A DNA stretch of 64,000 nucleotides from Patescibacteria group bacterium (GTDB lineage Bacteria > Patescibacteriota > Minisyncoccia > Phycocordibacterales > JBBUBG01): assembly GCA_040384765.1 (NCBI GenBank), contig JAZKIQ010000005.1, forward strand, positions 358-64,357, given 5' to 3'. A program made the position numbers and the translations under genes. This document shows, one piece after another, positions 19,616 to 24,082 of the stretch (its first letter is position 1; every line of letters starts with the position of its first letter). The notes beneath the pieces are model-generated. The model did not search any database and had not been told where the DNA came from. It was given only the letters and a program-made list of their open reading frames with translations.

Positions 19616-19722
19616 AAATCCCAAGCACCAAATTCCAGATATATTTCAATATTCAAAATACAAATAACCCAAGTTTAGTATTTGAGTTTTGAGTATTTTC
19701 TGGAATTTGGTGCTTGGGATTT
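19616..19722. repeat. family-F element copy 2 with perfect 24-bp terminal inverted repeats aaatcccaagcaccaaattccaga, in divergent mreB2/priA promoter region
   Basis: perfect 24-bp TIRs; loop aaataacccaagtttagtatttgagttttgag homologous to copy 1 loop. Confidence 0.65.
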
Positions 19723-19770
19723 GAAGAAGGAAGCGCTTCTAGATGCGCCACGTCTATGCCATTATAGCCC

Positions 19771-21709
19771 CATGGAAGAAGCTACCCCGGAGGTCGAACC
19801 CGCTCCGCAAATGTTCCTTATCTCGGTCATCCCTCTCTCGCGCGAGCCGCTCAGCGAAAGCCTTTCGTATTTCAGCAAAAAAAAGCTACCTGCCGGATCG
19901 CTCGTAGAGGTACCGGTACGCAACAGACACCTCTTTGCCCTCGTCTCCTCGTGTGAGTCCGTACTCGATCTTAAATCTGCAATAAAAAACGCACCGTTTC
20001 CGATCAAAAAAATAGACACACTCAAGGAGGGACTTTTTTTTGACGCGCCGTTTCTCGAGGCAATCCGCAAGGCATCGCACTTTTTTGCCGTCTCTCCGGG
20101 CGCACTCCTGCGCACCCATATCCCTGAGGCGATCCTTGAAAACTGGGATGGTCTGGAAGCAAAGGAGATGCCGCCGCGGGGCCTCCCTGCCATATCCGAA
20201 CAGTATCTCTTGCAGGCGCCTATTACCGAACGTGAAGGGATCTATCGCGCGAAAATCCGAGAGGAGTTTGCAAAGAAGCATTCAATCCTCCTCTTGGTGC
20301 CCAGCAAGAGCGCCATCGATGATAGCGCGCTCCGGCTCTCTCGAGGGATCGAAGAGTACACGATCAAGCTCCATGGAGATCTCCCCGCCAAAGAGCTCCT
20401 TGCCAGCTGGAACAAAGCACTTTCCGAGGAGCACCCCGTGCTCGTAATCGCGACCGCACCGTACCTCGCGCTCCCGCGCCACGATATTGGCACCTACATA
20501 ATCGAGCATGAAGCAGGAGCGGGCTACCGCTCTATTGTGCGGCCCTACTACGACTCGCGAACGATCGCCGCATACCTCGCGGCCGCGCGCGGTGCCTCGA
20601 TCATCTTTGCCGACACACTTCTCTCGTTTGAAACACTCCACAAGAAGGAGCTCGGCGAAGCGCAGGCACTCGCTCCACTCAAACATCGGCTTGTCTCAAG
20701 CGGTGAGACAGCGGTGATCGACCTCAAAAAAAACAAAGAGAAAAAGGGTGACTATTTTCTTTCCGCAGAACTCCTCTCGACAATAAAAGAGACCCTTGCC
20801 CGTGAACAAAACCTCTTTTTATTTACAACACGAAAAGGGATCGCCCCGCTGACGGTGTGCAACGACTGCAGCACCACTCTCGGCTGCAGCGTGTGTGGAA
20901 GGCCACTGGTACTCTATGCACGAGAGGCAAAAAAAGAGGGCGAATCAAAGAATGTGTTTGTCTGCCATTCATGCTCAAAAGAGTACCCGACAGATACTCG
21001 CTGCGCTGTATGCGGAAGCTGGCGCTTGGCCCCGCTTGGCGTAGGAGTAGAGCGAGTGAAGGAGGCGATACGCGAGGCATTTCCTGAAGCACATATCTTC
21101 TCGGTAGACCGCGACAGCACCAAAACACACAAGCAGGCGCTTGAGGTGGCAGGGCGCTTTCAAAAATCATCCGGGGCGATCTTGATAGGCACAGAGATGG
21201 CGCTGCCGTACCTCACAGAGATTAGTGTGAGCGCTGTGGTGTCGGCAGACAACCTTTTTGCAATCCCAGATTTTCGGATCAACGAGAGGCTGATGCACAT
21301 ACTAGTCGAGATGCGCGAAAAAACTCGTGGTGCGTTTATCATACAGACCCGAAAGCCTGATCTGCGTATCTTTACTCACGCAAAGCGCGGCACTATTTTT
21401 GACTTTTATCGCGAGGAGATGGAGAACCGCAAGAAATATGACTACCCACCCTACTCTGTTTTTGTAAAAATAACGCGCACCGGAAAAAGCATGGAGGTTC
21501 ATGCAGAGATGGATACTCTTGAGATCGATCTTGCGGAGTGGAAACCCGAGGTGTTCTCAGGTTTTGCGCCGCCCCATGGTGGAGAGGAGACCATGCATGC
21601 ACTTGTGCGCCTCGAACCCTCGCTCTGGCCACACGATAGGCTGATCGCACTTTTGCGAAAGCTGCCGCCAAAGTTTTATATAGAGGTAGACCCCGAGGAG
21701 CTGTTTTAA
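19771..21709 (+). CDS. priA: primosomal protein N-prime (PriA)-like with degenerate helicase motifs; start uncertain (19682 TTG to ~19808)
   Basis: Cys4 zinc-ribbon insert CNDCSTTLGCSVCG...CHSCS...CAVCG typical of PriA; C-terminal domain conserved; no GxxxxGK[ST] Walker A, DEEH replaced by IEHE. Confidence 0.6.
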
Positions 21710-21717
21710 AAAGAAAC

Positions 21718-21754
21718 CCCGACAACCGTCACCGGTTGTCGGGGCGCTCTCAGG
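21718..21754 (-). terminator. rho-independent terminator (minus strand)
   Basis: ccccgacaaccg-tcac-cggttgtcgggg followed on minus strand by tttcttttt. Confidence 0.65.
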
Positions 21755-21787: not shown

Positions 21788-22171
21788 CTAGGCAGCCCGA
21801 AGCGCGCGGAGGCGGACGTACATATCGTACTCCTGCTTCTTCACGCCCCGCCGAGGCACGACCAAGAGGTCCCACTCGCGAGAGAACTGCTGTTCTCCCA
21901 CTTTGAGCTCCGCGGCCGCGAAGGAGAGGGCCATCCCCTTCAACACCTCTTCAGGGAGAGGCTCACCATCTTCGACTTCGAGGTAGTTCGCGCTGATCCT
22001 CTCGAAGAAGGAGGCAATTTCCGGAGTGAGCTCCGGAACGATGCTCACGCTTTCCATCATCTCGTCGTGCAGGCATGGCCTCTTGTCTGCCCTGCTCGCC
22101 CGACGAGCGAGCAAGATGACGAGCATTACGAACGCACAGACGACCTGGGGCCACGAATCGATAAAGAACAA
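21788..22171 (-). CDS. hypothetical small membrane-anchored protein (GC-rich cassette); boundaries uncertain
   Basis: GC-rich region with overlapping ORFs on both strands; minus-strand terminator downstream; consensus-type promoter TTGACT-N16-TACAGT at 22219-22246 and SD gaggagg suggest TTG start ~22171 rather than ORF-track 22279. Confidence 0.35.
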   Translation of the reverse strand: MFFIDSWPQVVCAFVMLVILLARRASRADKRPCLHDEMMESVSIVPELTPEIASFFERISANYLEVEDGEPLPEEVLKGMALSFAAAELKVGEQQFSREWDLLVVPRRGVKKQEYDMYVRLRALRAA

Positions 22172-22218
22172 GGTGCCTCCTCTGCATTTTGCGCATTTCC
22201 GTCTGGAAAGCTTCCGAA

Positions 22219-22246
22219 TATACTGTAACATCTTTTGAAATAAAGT
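22219..22246 (-). promoter_or_regulatory. promoter P5 (TTGACT-N16-TACAGT) of same family as P1-P4
   Basis: minus strand ttgactttatttcaaaagatgttacagt. Confidence 0.4.
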
Positions 22247-22287
22247 CAACATATCCTGCGCGTGGATTGTGAGGCACAATTGAACAA

Positions 22288-23625
22288 ATGGCTGAGATAC
22301 GTGAAATCGTACAGGAAGGGACGCCTGTTCTTCGTGAAGTTACGAAAGAGGTTCCCCTTGAATCAATACGATCTCCAAAAATTCAAAAACTGATCGCCGA
22401 GATGAAGGCGACCGCTTCCAGGTGCGTAGATGGCGTAGCCCTCGCTGCACCACAGATCGGAGAGCCACTCCGCATTTTTGTTGTATCACCTCGTGCCTAT
22501 GCAGAAGGCGAGGATCTTTCGGAAGAGAATCTCGTCTATATCAACCCCAAAATAGTAAAGCTCTCCAAGAAAAGAGAAGAGCTCGACGAAGGATGCCTCT
22601 CTGTGCGCAATGTGTATGGCAAGATCGAGCGCTCAGAACGTGCCACGATCGTCGCATATAATGAGCACGGCGTGTCATTCGAGCGAGGTGCAGGCGGACT
22701 CCTCGCAGAGATATTTCAACACGAGATGGATCATCTCGAAGGAAAGCTTTTTATCGACTTTGCACGCGATCTGCGCATGGTGCCTCCTAAAGAGGTGCCT
22801 CGATTCGTTTTTTTTGGCACACCAGAGTTTGCGGTGCAGGTAGCAGAGGAGCTTGAGAAAAAGGAGCTGCTCCCCATACTAGTGGTTGCTGCACCTGACA
22901 AGCCGGTCGGCAGGAAGGGCGTTATCACTCCCCCACCCATGAAGGTGTGGGCAGAGAAGCGGCACATACCGTGCATCCAACCAGCAACGCTCAAAGGGAA
23001 AGAGGCGCTCGATACTCTTGTCGGGGAACAGCCCATACTGTTTGTCGTTGCCGCCTACGGCAAGATCATCCCTCAATCTATTCTTGATATCCCTTCACGC
23101 GGCACCCTAAACGTGCACCCTTCGCTTCTTCCCCGCCATCGCGGAGCAGCACCTATTCAGACAGCGATTCTTGAGGGAGACAAAGAGACAGGGGTGTGCG
23201 TAATGGTGCTTGATGCAGAGATGGATCATGGGCCAATCCTAGGATGCGAGCGACTAACGCTCGGAGAGTGGAAGCCCTCATACCCAGAGCTCGAAGAGAA
23301 GCTTGCACTTATGGGAGGTAAGCTTCTCGCGCGCCTTATCCCAAAATGGGTCAAGGCAACTATTGAGCCGAAGGAGCAAGATCATGTGAAGGCAACATTT
23401 ACAAAAAAACTTGAGACCGAAGATGCATTTGTTGAGCCAGGCGAAATAGAGAGCGAGCTTGCCGATCGCAAGATTCGCGCACTGCATCCGAGCCCAGGCG
23501 CATATACGATATTAAAAACAAAGACAGGCAAAGAGGTGCGACTCAAACTGCTACCTGGAGGCAAAGTGATTCCGGAGGGGAAAAAAGAGATGCTGTTTAG
23601 AGAGTGGAAGAGGGGCAATCTCTGA
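22288..23625 (+). CDS. def-fmt: fused peptide deformylase / methionyl-tRNA formyltransferase (Def-Fmt fusion)
   Basis: N-terminus has Def motifs GVALAAPQIG, EGCLSV, QHEMDHLEG; C-terminus has Fmt motifs FFGTPEFAV, HPSLLPRHRGAAPIQ; single uninterrupted 445-aa ORF. Confidence 0.8.
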   Translation: MAEIREIVQEGTPVLREVTKEVPLESIRSPKIQKLIAEMKATASRCVDGVALAAPQIGEPLRIFVVSPRAYAEGEDLSEENLVYINPKIVKLSKKREELDEGCLSVRNVYGKIERSERATIVAYNEHGVSFERGAGGLLAEIFQHEMDHLEGKLFIDFARDLRMVPPKEVPRFVFFGTPEFAVQVAEELEKKELLPILVVAAPDKPVGRKGVITPPPMKVWAEKRHIPCIQPATLKGKEALDTLVGEQPILFVVAAYGKIIPQSILDIPSRGTLNVHPSLLPRHRGAAPIQTAILEGDKETGVCVMVLDAEMDHGPILGCERLTLGEWKPSYPELEEKLALMGGKLLARLIPKWVKATIEPKEQDHVKATFTKKLETEDAFVEPGEIESELADRKIRALHPSPGAYTILKTKTGKEVRLKLLPGGKVIPEGKKEMLFREWKRGNL

Positions 23626-23740: not shown

Positions 23741-23785
23741 AAAAAAATTCAAGCCCCGGTTCGCTTGCGCGAACCGGGGCTTTCC
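23741..23785 (-). terminator. GC hairpin terminator (gccccggttcgc-ttgc-gcgaaccggggc), copy 1 of a duplicated hairpin
   Basis: on minus strand followed by ttgaattttttt; near-identical copy at 24102-24131. Confidence 0.6.
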
Positions 23786-23791
23786 GCGGGT

Positions 23792-24082
23792 CTAGGCCCG
23801 ATCGGCGTCCTCCATCTCCTGCTCATGGCTACGGAGACGCTCCGCCTTCTCCTCTTCGGCGGCCTGCTTCTGCGCGAGGATAGCGCCCACGACATCAGAC
23901 ATGTCCGAGGAGCGCAGCCTGCTGCAACAGTCTCGGTAGGCCGCCATGATCTCGTCGTGATTCTCAGGAATCTTGGTAGCGCGCAGGAGTCGCTCGAGCA
24001 TCTCGAGCTGACCCTTCGTCTGCACCATCTTGATGATCGCCACCACCGAGAGATGGAATGGCTTGAGATCTTTGGGATCCAC
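23792..24082 (-). CDS. hypothetical protein (GC-rich, GTG start with SD aaggag)
   Basis: 96 aa, acidic C-terminus; flanked by two near-identical GC hairpins. Confidence 0.5.
   Translation of the reverse strand: MDPKDLKPFHLSVVAIIKMVQTKGQLEMLERLLRATKIPENHDEIMAAYRDCCSRLRSSDMSDVVGAILAQKQAAEEEKAERLRSHEQEMEDADRA

What the first reader, a model, noticed from the sequence alone, without database searches (positions are those of the whole stretch)
22288..23625. Def-Fmt translational fusion
A single 445-aa ORF contains a complete peptide deformylase (GVALAAPQIG, EGCLSV, QHEMDHLEG metal-binding motifs) followed without a stop by a complete methionyl-tRNA formyltransferase (FFGTPEFAV, HPSLLPRHRGAAPIQ). 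In most bacteria def and fmt are adjacent but separate genes. A fusion couples formylation and deformylation in one polypeptide. It is uncommon and may be lineage-diagnostic.
Basis: seen in the sequence. Interest (0 to 1): 0.6.

Follow-up and report, generated by a model that had tools for sequence, protein, structure and literature searches.

The report
Fused deformylase–formyltransferase gene, real
One gene in this uncultured Patescibacteria genome encodes both the enzyme that adds the formyl group to the starter methionine and the enzyme that later removes it; the fusion is genuine, but the same kind has been described and shown to work in Exiguobacterium, and it has arisen several times in this bacterial group, so it is a modest curiosity.

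Summary
Window 22288..23625 (+) is one 445-aa ORF with a peptide deformylase (Def, aa 1-164), an 8-residue Pro-rich linker, and a methionyl-tRNA formyltransferase (Fmt, aa 173-445). Both halves pass curated family thresholds and keep all catalytic residues.

It is not an assembly artefact. Two 65-66% identical proteins from independent assemblies have a gap-free junction at the DNA level, with many synonymous changes. At least 177 fused homologues were retrieved, all in the order Def then Fmt.

The organism is a Patescibacteria (CPR) bacterium, and the identical protein is already in NCBI. The closest unfused relatives have the same synteny, with def overlapping fmt by 14-17 nt in another frame. 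The fusion therefore most likely arose by a small indel or stop loss in a translationally coupled gene pair.

The fusion is patchy, not lineage-defining. Only 4 of the 120 nearest Fmt relatives are fused. A tree gives at least four well-supported fused clades in Patescibacteria, separate from the Exiguobacterium fusions.

A Def-Fmt fusion was reported in Exiguobacterium in 2025 and complemented an E. coli def-fmt deletion. UniRef labels such proteins "Multifunctional fusion protein".

Verdict: real, a new member of a known kind, low to moderate interest.

The parts
22288..23625 (+). Whole def-fmt fusion ORF (445 aa plus TGA stop)
   Evidence: Identical to P0001, named by NCBI 'MAG: methionyl-tRNA formyltransferase [Patescibacteria group bacterium]', on a 179-kb contig.
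22288..22779 (+). Peptide deformylase module, aa 1-164. It ends in a short beta-strand (aa 160-164) instead of an E. coli-type C-terminal helix.
   Evidence: Pfam PF01327 at aa 4-161, E 2e-42. TIGR00079 scores 121.4, above 103.95. AF2 secondary structure. Foldseek matches PDF structures with TMt 0.77-0.82.
22432..22455 (+). Def motif I, G49-V-A-L-A-A-P-Q56. Gln56 is the catalytic Gln. Ala51 replaces the canonical second Gly.
   Evidence: A51, A53, P55 and Q56 are invariant in 38 fused homologues. Motif definition from PMC12690207.
22588..22602 (+). Def motif II, E101-G-C-L-S105. Cys103 is a metal ligand.
   Evidence: Invariant in alignments A1 and A2.
22720..22734 (+). Def motif III, H145-E-M-D-H149. 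The two His are metal ligands and Glu146 is the catalytic Glu.
   Evidence: H145, E146, D148 and H149 are invariant.
22780..22803 (+). Junction/linker, aa 165-172 (V-P-P-K-E-V-P-R). It is homologous to the short '..D-x-P-P..' tail of unfused Patescibacteria Def proteins.
   Evidence: Collinear and gap-free in L081 and L082, with synonymous differences and no conserved internal start codon. Tails of unfused Def proteins. pLDDT about 81 here.
22804..23352 (+). Fmt N-terminal catalytic (formyltransferase, Rossmann-type) domain, aa 173-355
   Evidence: PF00551 at aa 172-347, E 2.7e-33. TIGR00460 above cutoff. Aligned to E. coli, B. anthracis and Coxiella Fmt structures.
22894..22944 (+). Fmt insertion loop 1 (P203-D-K-P-V-G-R209 ... 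K219). R209 aligns with E. coli Arg42.
   Evidence: phmmer alignment to 1fmt/2fmt. The role of this loop in reading the initiator tRNA is from my own knowledge of the 2FMT complex and was not tested here.
23110..23118 (+). Fmt catalytic Asn275 and His277 (E. coli Asn108 and His110), at the start of the HPSLLPRHRG motif
   Evidence: Alignment to 1fmt. Invariant in A1 and A2.
23224..23226 (+). Fmt catalytic Asp313 (E. coli Asp146)
23353..23622 (+). Fmt inter-domain linker plus a reduced C-terminal domain, aa 356-445. This clade lacks a roughly 13-residue beta-hairpin present in relatives.
   Evidence: PF02911 scores only 16.5 bits, below 21.1. Gap in A1 columns about 545-570. AF2 strands 406-410, 416-422 and 426-429 and helix 437-444. 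Foldseek aligns about 305 columns to 314-residue Fmt chains.
19682..21709 (+). Upstream PriA-like gene (context). It belongs to the conserved order priA-like, def, fmt, PPIase, hibernation factor.
   Evidence: Weak PriA_3primeBD hit. Same order in L081-L084.

Best explanation
This is a genuine bifunctional protein. The N-terminal module is a metal-dependent peptide deformylase. The C-terminal module is a 10-formyl-tetrahydrofolate-dependent methionyl-tRNA(fMet) formyltransferase. They are joined by an 8-residue Pro-rich linker.

Shown:
- Both modules are intact and conserved, and the reading frame runs through the junction in independent assemblies.
- The nearest unfused relatives carry def and fmt in the same synteny, overlapping by 14-17 nt in different frames.

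Inferred:
- The fusion arose when a small indel or stop loss merged a translationally coupled def/fmt pair. This has happened repeatedly in Patescibacteria.
- The two modules act independently on their normal substrates: Met-tRNAfMet before initiation, and the nascent fMet-peptide at the ribosome exit. No channelling occurs.
- The benefit, if any, is genome compaction and obligatory 1:1 co-expression. Because Def is always the upstream half, a truncating mutation in def also removes Fmt. That avoids the harmful 'formylation without deformylation' state.
For: - Domain calls are above curated cutoffs.
- Catalytic residues are invariant in 38 fused homologues: Def Q56, C103, H145, E146, H149; Fmt N275, H277, D313. 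R209 (E. coli R42) is nearly invariant in the 10-sequence alignment.
- The AF2 model has pLDDT 93.8 and pTM 0.72, with two folded modules. Foldseek matches Fmt structures (TMt 0.76-0.78) and PDF structures (TMt 0.77-0.82).
- P0002 (JGI) and P0003 (ENA), 65-66% identical, share the synteny and an indel-free junction with many synonymous changes.
- All 177 fused homologues retrieved are Def then Fmt.
- The nearest unfused relatives, L083 and L084, have def overlapping fmt by 14 and 17 nt (ATGA...TAA). Sixteen other Patescibacteria loci have abutting or overlapping pairs with the same short Def tail.
- The Fmt-domain tree gives the window clade 94/100 with an unfused sister in 94 of 100 replicates. 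Other fused clades have 96-100% support.
- An Exiguobacterium Def-Fmt fusion restores growth of E. coli delta-def-fmt, so a fused polypeptide can carry both activities (PMC12690207).
- def is essential only while formylation is active (PMC6815462, abstract listed, and PMC12690207 introduction). This underlies the fail-safe argument.
Against: - No enzymatic or expression data exist for this protein.
- Def motif I has Ala in place of the canonical second Gly. Ala is invariant in this group and its effect is unknown.
- The Fmt C-terminal domain is shortened, so tRNA binding could differ.
- The selective-advantage part is pure inference. A patchy distribution with many unfused sisters fits a nearly neutral event equally well.
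- The NJ tree on 276 columns is coarse. The exact number of independent fusions, as opposed to secondary splits, is uncertain.
- Only 64 kb of the genome was seen. A second def, the initiator tRNA and the formyl-folate supply could not be checked.
Confidence: 0.85

Rival explanations
1. Assembly or sequencing artefact. Two separate, overlapping genes (def and fmt) were merged by an indel error in the MAG, hiding the def stop codon.
For: Close relatives do have def and fmt overlapping by 14-17 nt in different frames, so one erroneous base could fuse them. A T8 homopolymer lies at 22807-22814, just after the junction. The source is a metagenome-assembled genome.
Against: P0002 and P0003 come from different projects (JGI, ENA) and have the same fused frame. 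Their junction aligns codon for codon without gaps and carries many synonymous substitutions. The protein alignment is collinear through the T8 run (R-F-V-F-F-G-T-P). More than 170 fused homologues come from many assemblies.
Confidence: 0.03
2. The ORF is fused, but two separate proteins are made: Fmt is translated from an internal start, or the polypeptide is cleaved at the Pro-rich linker. The fusion would then be only a gene-structure quirk.
For: In-frame ATG (M164) and GTG (V170) codons lie in the linker, and an AAAGAGG stretch precedes the GTG. Unfused relatives start Fmt 3-12 residues before the FFG motif.
Against: Neither candidate start is conserved in the two closest fused relatives: M164 becomes Y or T, and GTG becomes ACT or GCT. 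The GAGG abuts the GTG with no spacer. Nothing in the sequence points to a cleavage site, but that was not tested.
Confidence: 0.07
3. One half is a degenerate pseudo-enzyme, for example an inactive Def because of the motif I Gly-to-Ala change, or an Fmt crippled by its short C-terminal domain. A second stand-alone gene elsewhere in the genome would supply the activity, as Exiguobacterium has a second PDF.
For: Ala51 departs from both the classical and the updated motif I. The PF02911 match is below threshold. All Exiguobacterium genomes with the fusion also have a second PDF (PMC12690207). Only 64 kb of the genome could be inspected.
Against: All metal ligands and catalytic residues of both halves are invariant across fused proteins that are only 40-66% identical to the window protein. 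This indicates purifying selection on both active sites. Both halves pass the equivalog cutoffs. No second def or fmt lies in the window. PMC12690207 notes that exact motif conservation is not required for PDF activity.
Confidence: 0.05

Closest known systems
Exiguobacterium Def-Fmt fusion (e.g. WP_021067074.1 = P0296, 461 aa; reported in Mol Biol Evol 2025, PMC12690207)
   Same: It is a single ORF in the order Def then Fmt, with a short linker directly after the 'LF-x-D' end of the Def core. All catalytic motifs of both halves are kept. [quoted passage not shown]
   Different: It is only 35% identical overall. It has a full-length Fmt C-terminal domain and the canonical G-V-G-V-A-A-P-Q motif I. 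It falls in a separate clade of the Fmt tree and comes from a different phylum, Bacillota, so the fusion event was independent.
Other Patescibacteria Def-Fmt fusions (Zambryskibacteria, Nealsonbacteria and others; UniRef 'Multifunctional fusion protein', e.g. A0A2G9YSK9)
   Same: They share the architecture, the '..D-x-P-P..' linker, Ala in motif I and the compact Fmt C-terminal domain ending '..PEGKKEM..F.RGN'.
   Different: They are 39-48% identical, no closer than unfused Fmt proteins of the same group, which are 45-54% identical over the Fmt domain. They form separate, well-supported clades. The largest clade (60 members) has lost about 30 residues that include Fmt loop 1, which the window protein keeps.
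Canonical def-fmt operon (E. coli type) and the overlapping def/fmt pairs of Patescibacteria
   Same: The gene order is the same and so are the two enzymes. The nearest relatives also share the synteny priA-like, def, fmt, PPIase, HPF.
   Different: These are two polypeptides. E. coli Def ends in a C-terminal helix that docks on the ribosome near uL22 (PMC12690207). The window protein has no such helix. Its Def C-terminus runs straight into Fmt.

Membership tests
Peptide deformylase (PF01327 / TIGR00079) | Profile match above the curated threshold | tested here: met
   PF01327 scores 144.9 bits against 22.8. TIGR00079 scores 121.4 against 103.95.
Peptide deformylase (PF01327 / TIGR00079) | Metal ligands Cys (motif II, EGCLS) and two His (motif III, HExxH), plus catalytic Glu and Gln | tested here: met
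   C103, H145, H149, E146 and Q56 are present and invariant in 38 homologues.
Peptide deformylase (PF01327 / TIGR00079) | Motif I as G-phi-G-phi-A-A-x-Q (updated form: phi-G-phi-A-A-x-Q) | tested here: inconclusive
   The window has G-V-A-L-A-A-P-Q, with Ala51 in place of the second Gly. Ala is invariant in all 38 aligned Patescibacteria fusions. PMC12690207 states that exact motif conservation is not essential for activity.
Peptide deformylase (PF01327 / TIGR00079) | PDF fold | tested here: met
   AF2 model with pLDDT 93.8. Foldseek matches AtPDF1A and Leptospira PDF with TMt 0.77-0.82.
Peptide deformylase (PF01327 / TIGR00079) | Deformylase activity on fMet-peptides | not testable with these tools
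   Needs an enzyme assay or complementation.
Methionyl-tRNA formyltransferase (TIGR00460) | Equivalog profile above the curated cutoff, better than other formyltransferase families | tested here: met
   TIGR00460 scores 209.3 against 201.5. ArnA, PurN and PurU models score far below their cutoffs. The margin is small because only profile positions 2-242 of 315 are matched.
Methionyl-tRNA formyltransferase (TIGR00460) | Catalytic Asn-His-Asp triad and the SLLPxxRG motif | tested here: met
   N275, H277 and D313 align with E. coli N108, H110 and D146 and are invariant.
Methionyl-tRNA formyltransferase (TIGR00460) | Insertion loop 1 with the Arg42 equivalent (reads the initiator tRNA acceptor end) | tested here: met
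   P203-DKPVGR209...K219 aligns with E. coli residues 36-52. The function of the loop is from established knowledge of 2FMT and was not tested here.
Methionyl-tRNA formyltransferase (TIGR00460) | C-terminal tRNA-binding beta-barrel domain (PF02911) | tested here: inconclusive
   PF02911 scores 16.5 bits, below 21.1. The sequence alignment to E. coli stops at 239 of 314. The model still has three strands and a helix there, and Foldseek aligns about 305 columns to whole Fmt chains. The domain is present but reduced.
Def-Fmt bifunctional fusion (as described for Exiguobacterium) | Both domains in one uninterrupted ORF, Def N-terminal | tested here: met
   Frame continuity is confirmed in independent assemblies.
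Def-Fmt bifunctional fusion (as described for Exiguobacterium) | Common descent with the Exiguobacterium fusion | tested here: not met
   Identity is 35%. The two lie in separate clades of the Fmt tree, and the sister of the window clade is unfused. They share a kind of architecture, not a fusion event.
Def-Fmt bifunctional fusion (as described for Exiguobacterium) | Both activities supplied by the single polypeptide in vivo | not testable with these tools
   Shown only for the Exiguobacterium protein (PMC12690207).

The most novel reading that the evidence does not exclude
The fusion could be mechanistically meaningful rather than mere compaction. The Def module has no ribosome-docking C-terminal helix, and its C-terminus is occupied by Fmt. 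The fused enzyme might therefore bind the CPR ribosome in a new way, for example through the basic tRNA-binding C-domain of Fmt. It might also act as a selected genetic fail-safe that makes Fmt expression strictly dependent on translation of an intact Def. Repeated, always Def-first fusion in small-genome Patescibacteria would then reflect selection, not drift.
Probability: 0.1. Interest if true: 0.5.

Novelty: new member of a known kind. Interest (0 to 1): 0.3.

Why it matters
Practically, the gene is under-annotated. NCBI names it only 'methionyl-tRNA formyltransferase', and relatives only 'peptide deformylase'. Pathway inventories of CPR genomes can therefore wrongly score def or fmt as missing.

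Biologically, it adds a clean example of how overlapping, translationally coupled genes turn into a bifunctional protein in streamlined genomes. It also shows that the Def-Fmt fusion recently noted as an oddity of Exiguobacterium is recurrent in Patescibacteria.

It does not open a long-standing question. Its main follow-up value is as a natural test of whether Def needs its own C-terminal ribosome anchor.

Tried and rejected
- Second def or fmt copy in the window: phmmer of each half against all six-frame ORFs of at least 60 aa hit only the fusion ORF.
- Structured RNA or tRNA near the gene: 0 tRNAs and 0 Rfam matches at gathering score in the whole 64 kb.
- Internal promoter or terminator splitting the ORF: only weak consensus matches, close to the shuffle expectation for promoters. 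The strong hairpins at 21716-21745 and 23751-23782 lie outside the ORF and read as minus-strand terminators.
- Internal start for a separate Fmt: the candidate codons are not conserved in L081 and L082.
- Solved structure of a fused protein: none. Every PDB match by sequence or fold covers one module only.
- Literature on Patescibacteria or Parcubacteria Def-Fmt fusions: no paper found in the searchable library. Only the Exiguobacterium report turned up.
- GTDB genome scan as a census of fusions: the scan stopped at its 600-stretch limit, and tblastn joined neighbouring def and fmt. 'Coverage' therefore did not distinguish fused from unfused genes, and I had to re-derive ORFs. The result is a sample only: 1 fused among 17 Patescibacteria-type loci.
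- Inter-domain geometry (distance between active sites): model coordinates are not exposed to the scripting tool, so only pTM 0.72 can be quoted.

Full report
**1. Observation**

- Pfam places Pep_deformylase on aa 4-161 (E 2e-42) and Formyl_trans_N on aa 172-347 (E 2.7e-33). The Formyl_trans_C match at aa 388-414 is sub-threshold (16.5 against 21.1 bits).
- NCBIfam equivalog models pass their cutoffs for both halves. TIGR00079 scores 121.4 against 103.95. TIGR00460 fmt scores 209.3 against 201.5 but covers only profile positions 2-242 of 315.
- The two alternative frames each contain 17 stops across the ORF.

The one nuance is that the C-terminal domain of Fmt is reduced.

**2. Is it an artefact?**

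No.

- A search of 5.8 billion proteins returns an identical NCBI entry, P0001, named 'MAG: methionyl-tRNA formyltransferase [Patescibacteria group bacterium]', on a 179-kb contig.
- 119 of the best 120 hits carry both PF01327 and PF00551. They are 39-66% identical, 377-498 aa long, and come from NCBI, JGI, ENA and Logan assemblies.
- I fetched the DNA of the two closest relatives, P0003 (L081, ENA, 331-kb contig) and P0002 (L082, JGI). Both share the local gene order: mreB (-), priA-like (+), def-fmt (+), cyclophilin PPIase (-), hibernation factor (-).
- From QHExDH to FFGTP the three genes align codon for codon with no gaps. They differ at many synonymous third positions, and none has an in-frame stop.

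This pattern is what purifying selection on a continuous coding frame produces. An indel error in one assembly would not produce it.

**3. Anatomy**

An alignment of 38 fused proteins (A1) shows the invariant residues of both halves.

- Def: A51, A53, P55 and Q56 (motif I), E101-G-C-L-S105 (motif II), and H145, E146, D148 and H149 (motif III).
- Fmt: N275, H277, S279-L-L-P282, R285-G286 and D313.

phmmer alignment to E. coli Fmt (1fmt/2fmt) equates N275, H277 and D313 with the catalytic N108, H110 and D146, and R209 with R42 of insertion loop 1.

That alignment ends at E. coli residue 239 of 314. The window protein has 37 more residues where E. coli has 75. Compared with other Patescibacteria proteins, the window clade also lacks a hairpin of about 13 residues (A1 columns about 545-570).

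AlphaFold2 with A1 gives pLDDT 93.8 and pTM 0.72.

- After the HExxH helix (aa 137-150), Def ends in a short strand (aa 160-164).
- Eight residues, V165-PPKEVP-R172, lead straight into the first strand of Fmt (aa 173-177).
- There is no C-terminal Def helix of the kind that anchors E. coli PDF to the ribosome near uL22 (that role is described in PMC12690207).

Foldseek against the PDB matches complete Fmt structures (4iqf, 2fmt, 5uai; TMt 0.76-0.78, about 305 aligned columns) and PDFs (1zxz, 4je6, 1y6h; TMt 0.76-0.82). No chain covers both modules.

One departure from the textbook: motif I reads G-V-A-L-A-A-P-Q. Ala replaces the second Gly in all 38 aligned fusions (motif definitions).

**4. 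Origin**

A sample of GTDB genomes, re-analysed at the ORF level, shows one fused locus, L001 (a Zambryskibacteria MAG).

Sixteen other Patescibacteria-type loci have def and fmt as separate genes that abut or overlap. Examples are TAATG in L011, ATGTAAAATG in L036, and an fmt ATG inside the last def codons in L034. Their Def proteins end with the same short tail ('..FIDKAxxxxDxPPxx*') that forms the linker of the fused proteins.

I then queried with the Fmt half alone. Only 4 of the best 120 hits are fused (P0001, P0002, P0003, P0005). The others are stand-alone Fmt proteins of 278-328 aa at 45-54% identity, named Vogelbacteria, Lloydbacteria, Niyogibacteria, Paceibacterota or Parcubacteria.

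Two of these, P0141 (L083) and P0137 (L084), lie in the same synteny as the window gene. Their def overlaps fmt by 14 and 17 nt in a different frame.

A small indel or loss of the def stop in such a pair is therefore enough to create the fusion. This step is inferred, not observed.

**5. Distribution**

I built a neighbour-joining tree of the Fmt domain (466 sequences, 160 fused, 276 columns, 100 bootstraps).

- It recovers {window, P0002, P0003} in 94 of 100 replicates.
- The sister of that clade contains no fused protein in 94 of 100 replicates.
- Other fused clades of 60, 25 and 6 members have 96, 100 and 100% support.

The fusion has thus been gained, or less likely lost, several times within Patescibacteria. 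The exact count is uncertain: 30-48 separate clusters per replicate, which is certainly inflated by noise.

Outside the group, cluster look-up identifies P0296 as the Exiguobacterium fusion (461 aa). P0281 is a Nealsonbacteria fusion, and UniRef names both 'Multifunctional fusion protein'. P0344 is a fused protein from a Bacillota MAG.

In the exhaustive search of 50%-identity representatives, about 34 of the best 150 clusters span both domains. All 177 fused proteins in hand have the order Def then Fmt.

**6. What is known**

[quoted passage not shown] - They also note that these genomes carry a second PDF.

That survey does not mention Patescibacteria. I found no paper in the searchable library that describes the fusion in that group.

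The window protein is 35% identical to the Exiguobacterium fusion and lies in a different clade. The architecture is the same kind, but the fusion event was independent.

**7. Mechanism**

*Best-supported reading.* Two autonomous catalytic modules sit on one chain. Fmt formylates Met-tRNAfMet. Def later removes the formyl group from the nascent chain.

The two reactions are separated by initiation and by synthesis of the first tens of residues. Direct channelling is therefore not expected (established knowledge; inference).

*What the fusion does guarantee* is equimolar, simultaneous synthesis. Loss of Def is harmful only while formylation is active (PMC6815462, abstract listed; PMC12690207 introduction). 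An always Def-first fusion also means that any truncating mutation in def abolishes Fmt too.

Whether that was selected, or the fusion is a nearly neutral by-product of overlapping genes in compact genomes, cannot be decided from these data. The patchy distribution is compatible with both.

*Rivals.*
- Assembly artefact: rejected.
- Internal initiation or cleavage giving two proteins: possible but unsupported, because no start codon is conserved in the junction.
- One inactive half: unlikely, given the invariant active-site residues across fused proteins that are only about 40-66% identical to the window protein.

**8. Verdict**

'Lineage-diagnostic' holds only for a shallow three-member clade.

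The kind is already known, experimentally validated elsewhere, and labelled by automated annotation. This is a new member of a known kind. My analysis adds a likely origin from an overlapping gene pair and the recurrence of the fusion in Patescibacteria.

Interest is low to moderate (0.3).

Noticed in passing
Related proteins P0030, P0036, P0037, P0045, P0076, P0084, P0091 and others; locus L001 3851-5311: The largest fused clade (60 members, bootstrap 96/100, Zambryskibacteria-like) lacks about 30 residues of Fmt. The FFG-to-YGKI spacing is 50 instead of about 81. The missing stretch includes the 'PDKPxGR....TPxPVK' insertion loop that aligns with the E. coli Arg42 region thought to read the initiator tRNA. 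The Asn/His/Asp catalytic residues are kept. How these enzymes select their tRNA is unclear.
   Followed up: partly
window 22432-22455; alignment A1: Def motif I is G-V-A-[L/I]-A-A-P-Q in all 38 aligned Patescibacteria fusions. Ala replaces the second Gly of the canonical motif. The Exiguobacterium and other non-CPR fusions keep Gly.
   Followed up: partly
window 19682-21709 (+): This 675-aa PriA-like protein, with Cys-rich zinc-finger-like stretches, gives only a sub-threshold PriA_3primeBD match (21.4 against 22.7 bits) and no helicase-domain Pfam hit. The homologous gene in relatives L081 and L083 shows the same single hit.
   Followed up: no
window 21788-22279 (-): A 163-aa ORF with no Pfam match fills the 580-bp gap between the priA-like gene and def-fmt. 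A terminator-like hairpin lies at 21716-21745 on the minus strand. A small unannotated minus-strand gene is also called at this position in L081 and L084, but not in L082 or L083.
   Followed up: no
window 1-64000: The whole 64-kb window has no tRNA gene and no Rfam family at gathering score. GC is about 51% throughout, with negative GC skew in every 4-kb bin.
   Followed up: no
window 23751-23782: A strong 14-bp GC-rich hairpin sits 126 nt downstream of the def-fmt stop. Its T-run is on the minus strand, so it reads as the terminator of the convergent small gene 23792-24082 (-). It may serve both directions.
   Followed up: no
Protein P0400 (Exiguobacterium mexicanum, 304 aa) in the cluster of P0296: A stand-alone Fmt annotation sits inside the 90%-identity cluster of 461-aa Exiguobacterium fusions. 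It could be a different start-site call or a real split in that strain.
   Followed up: no
Loci L083 2466-3885 and L084 2457-3870: In the nearest unfused relatives, def and fmt overlap by 14 and 17 nt (ATGA...TAA), and in L084 a GAGGAGG lies inside the end of def. This is a textbook translational-coupling layout.
   Followed up: yes
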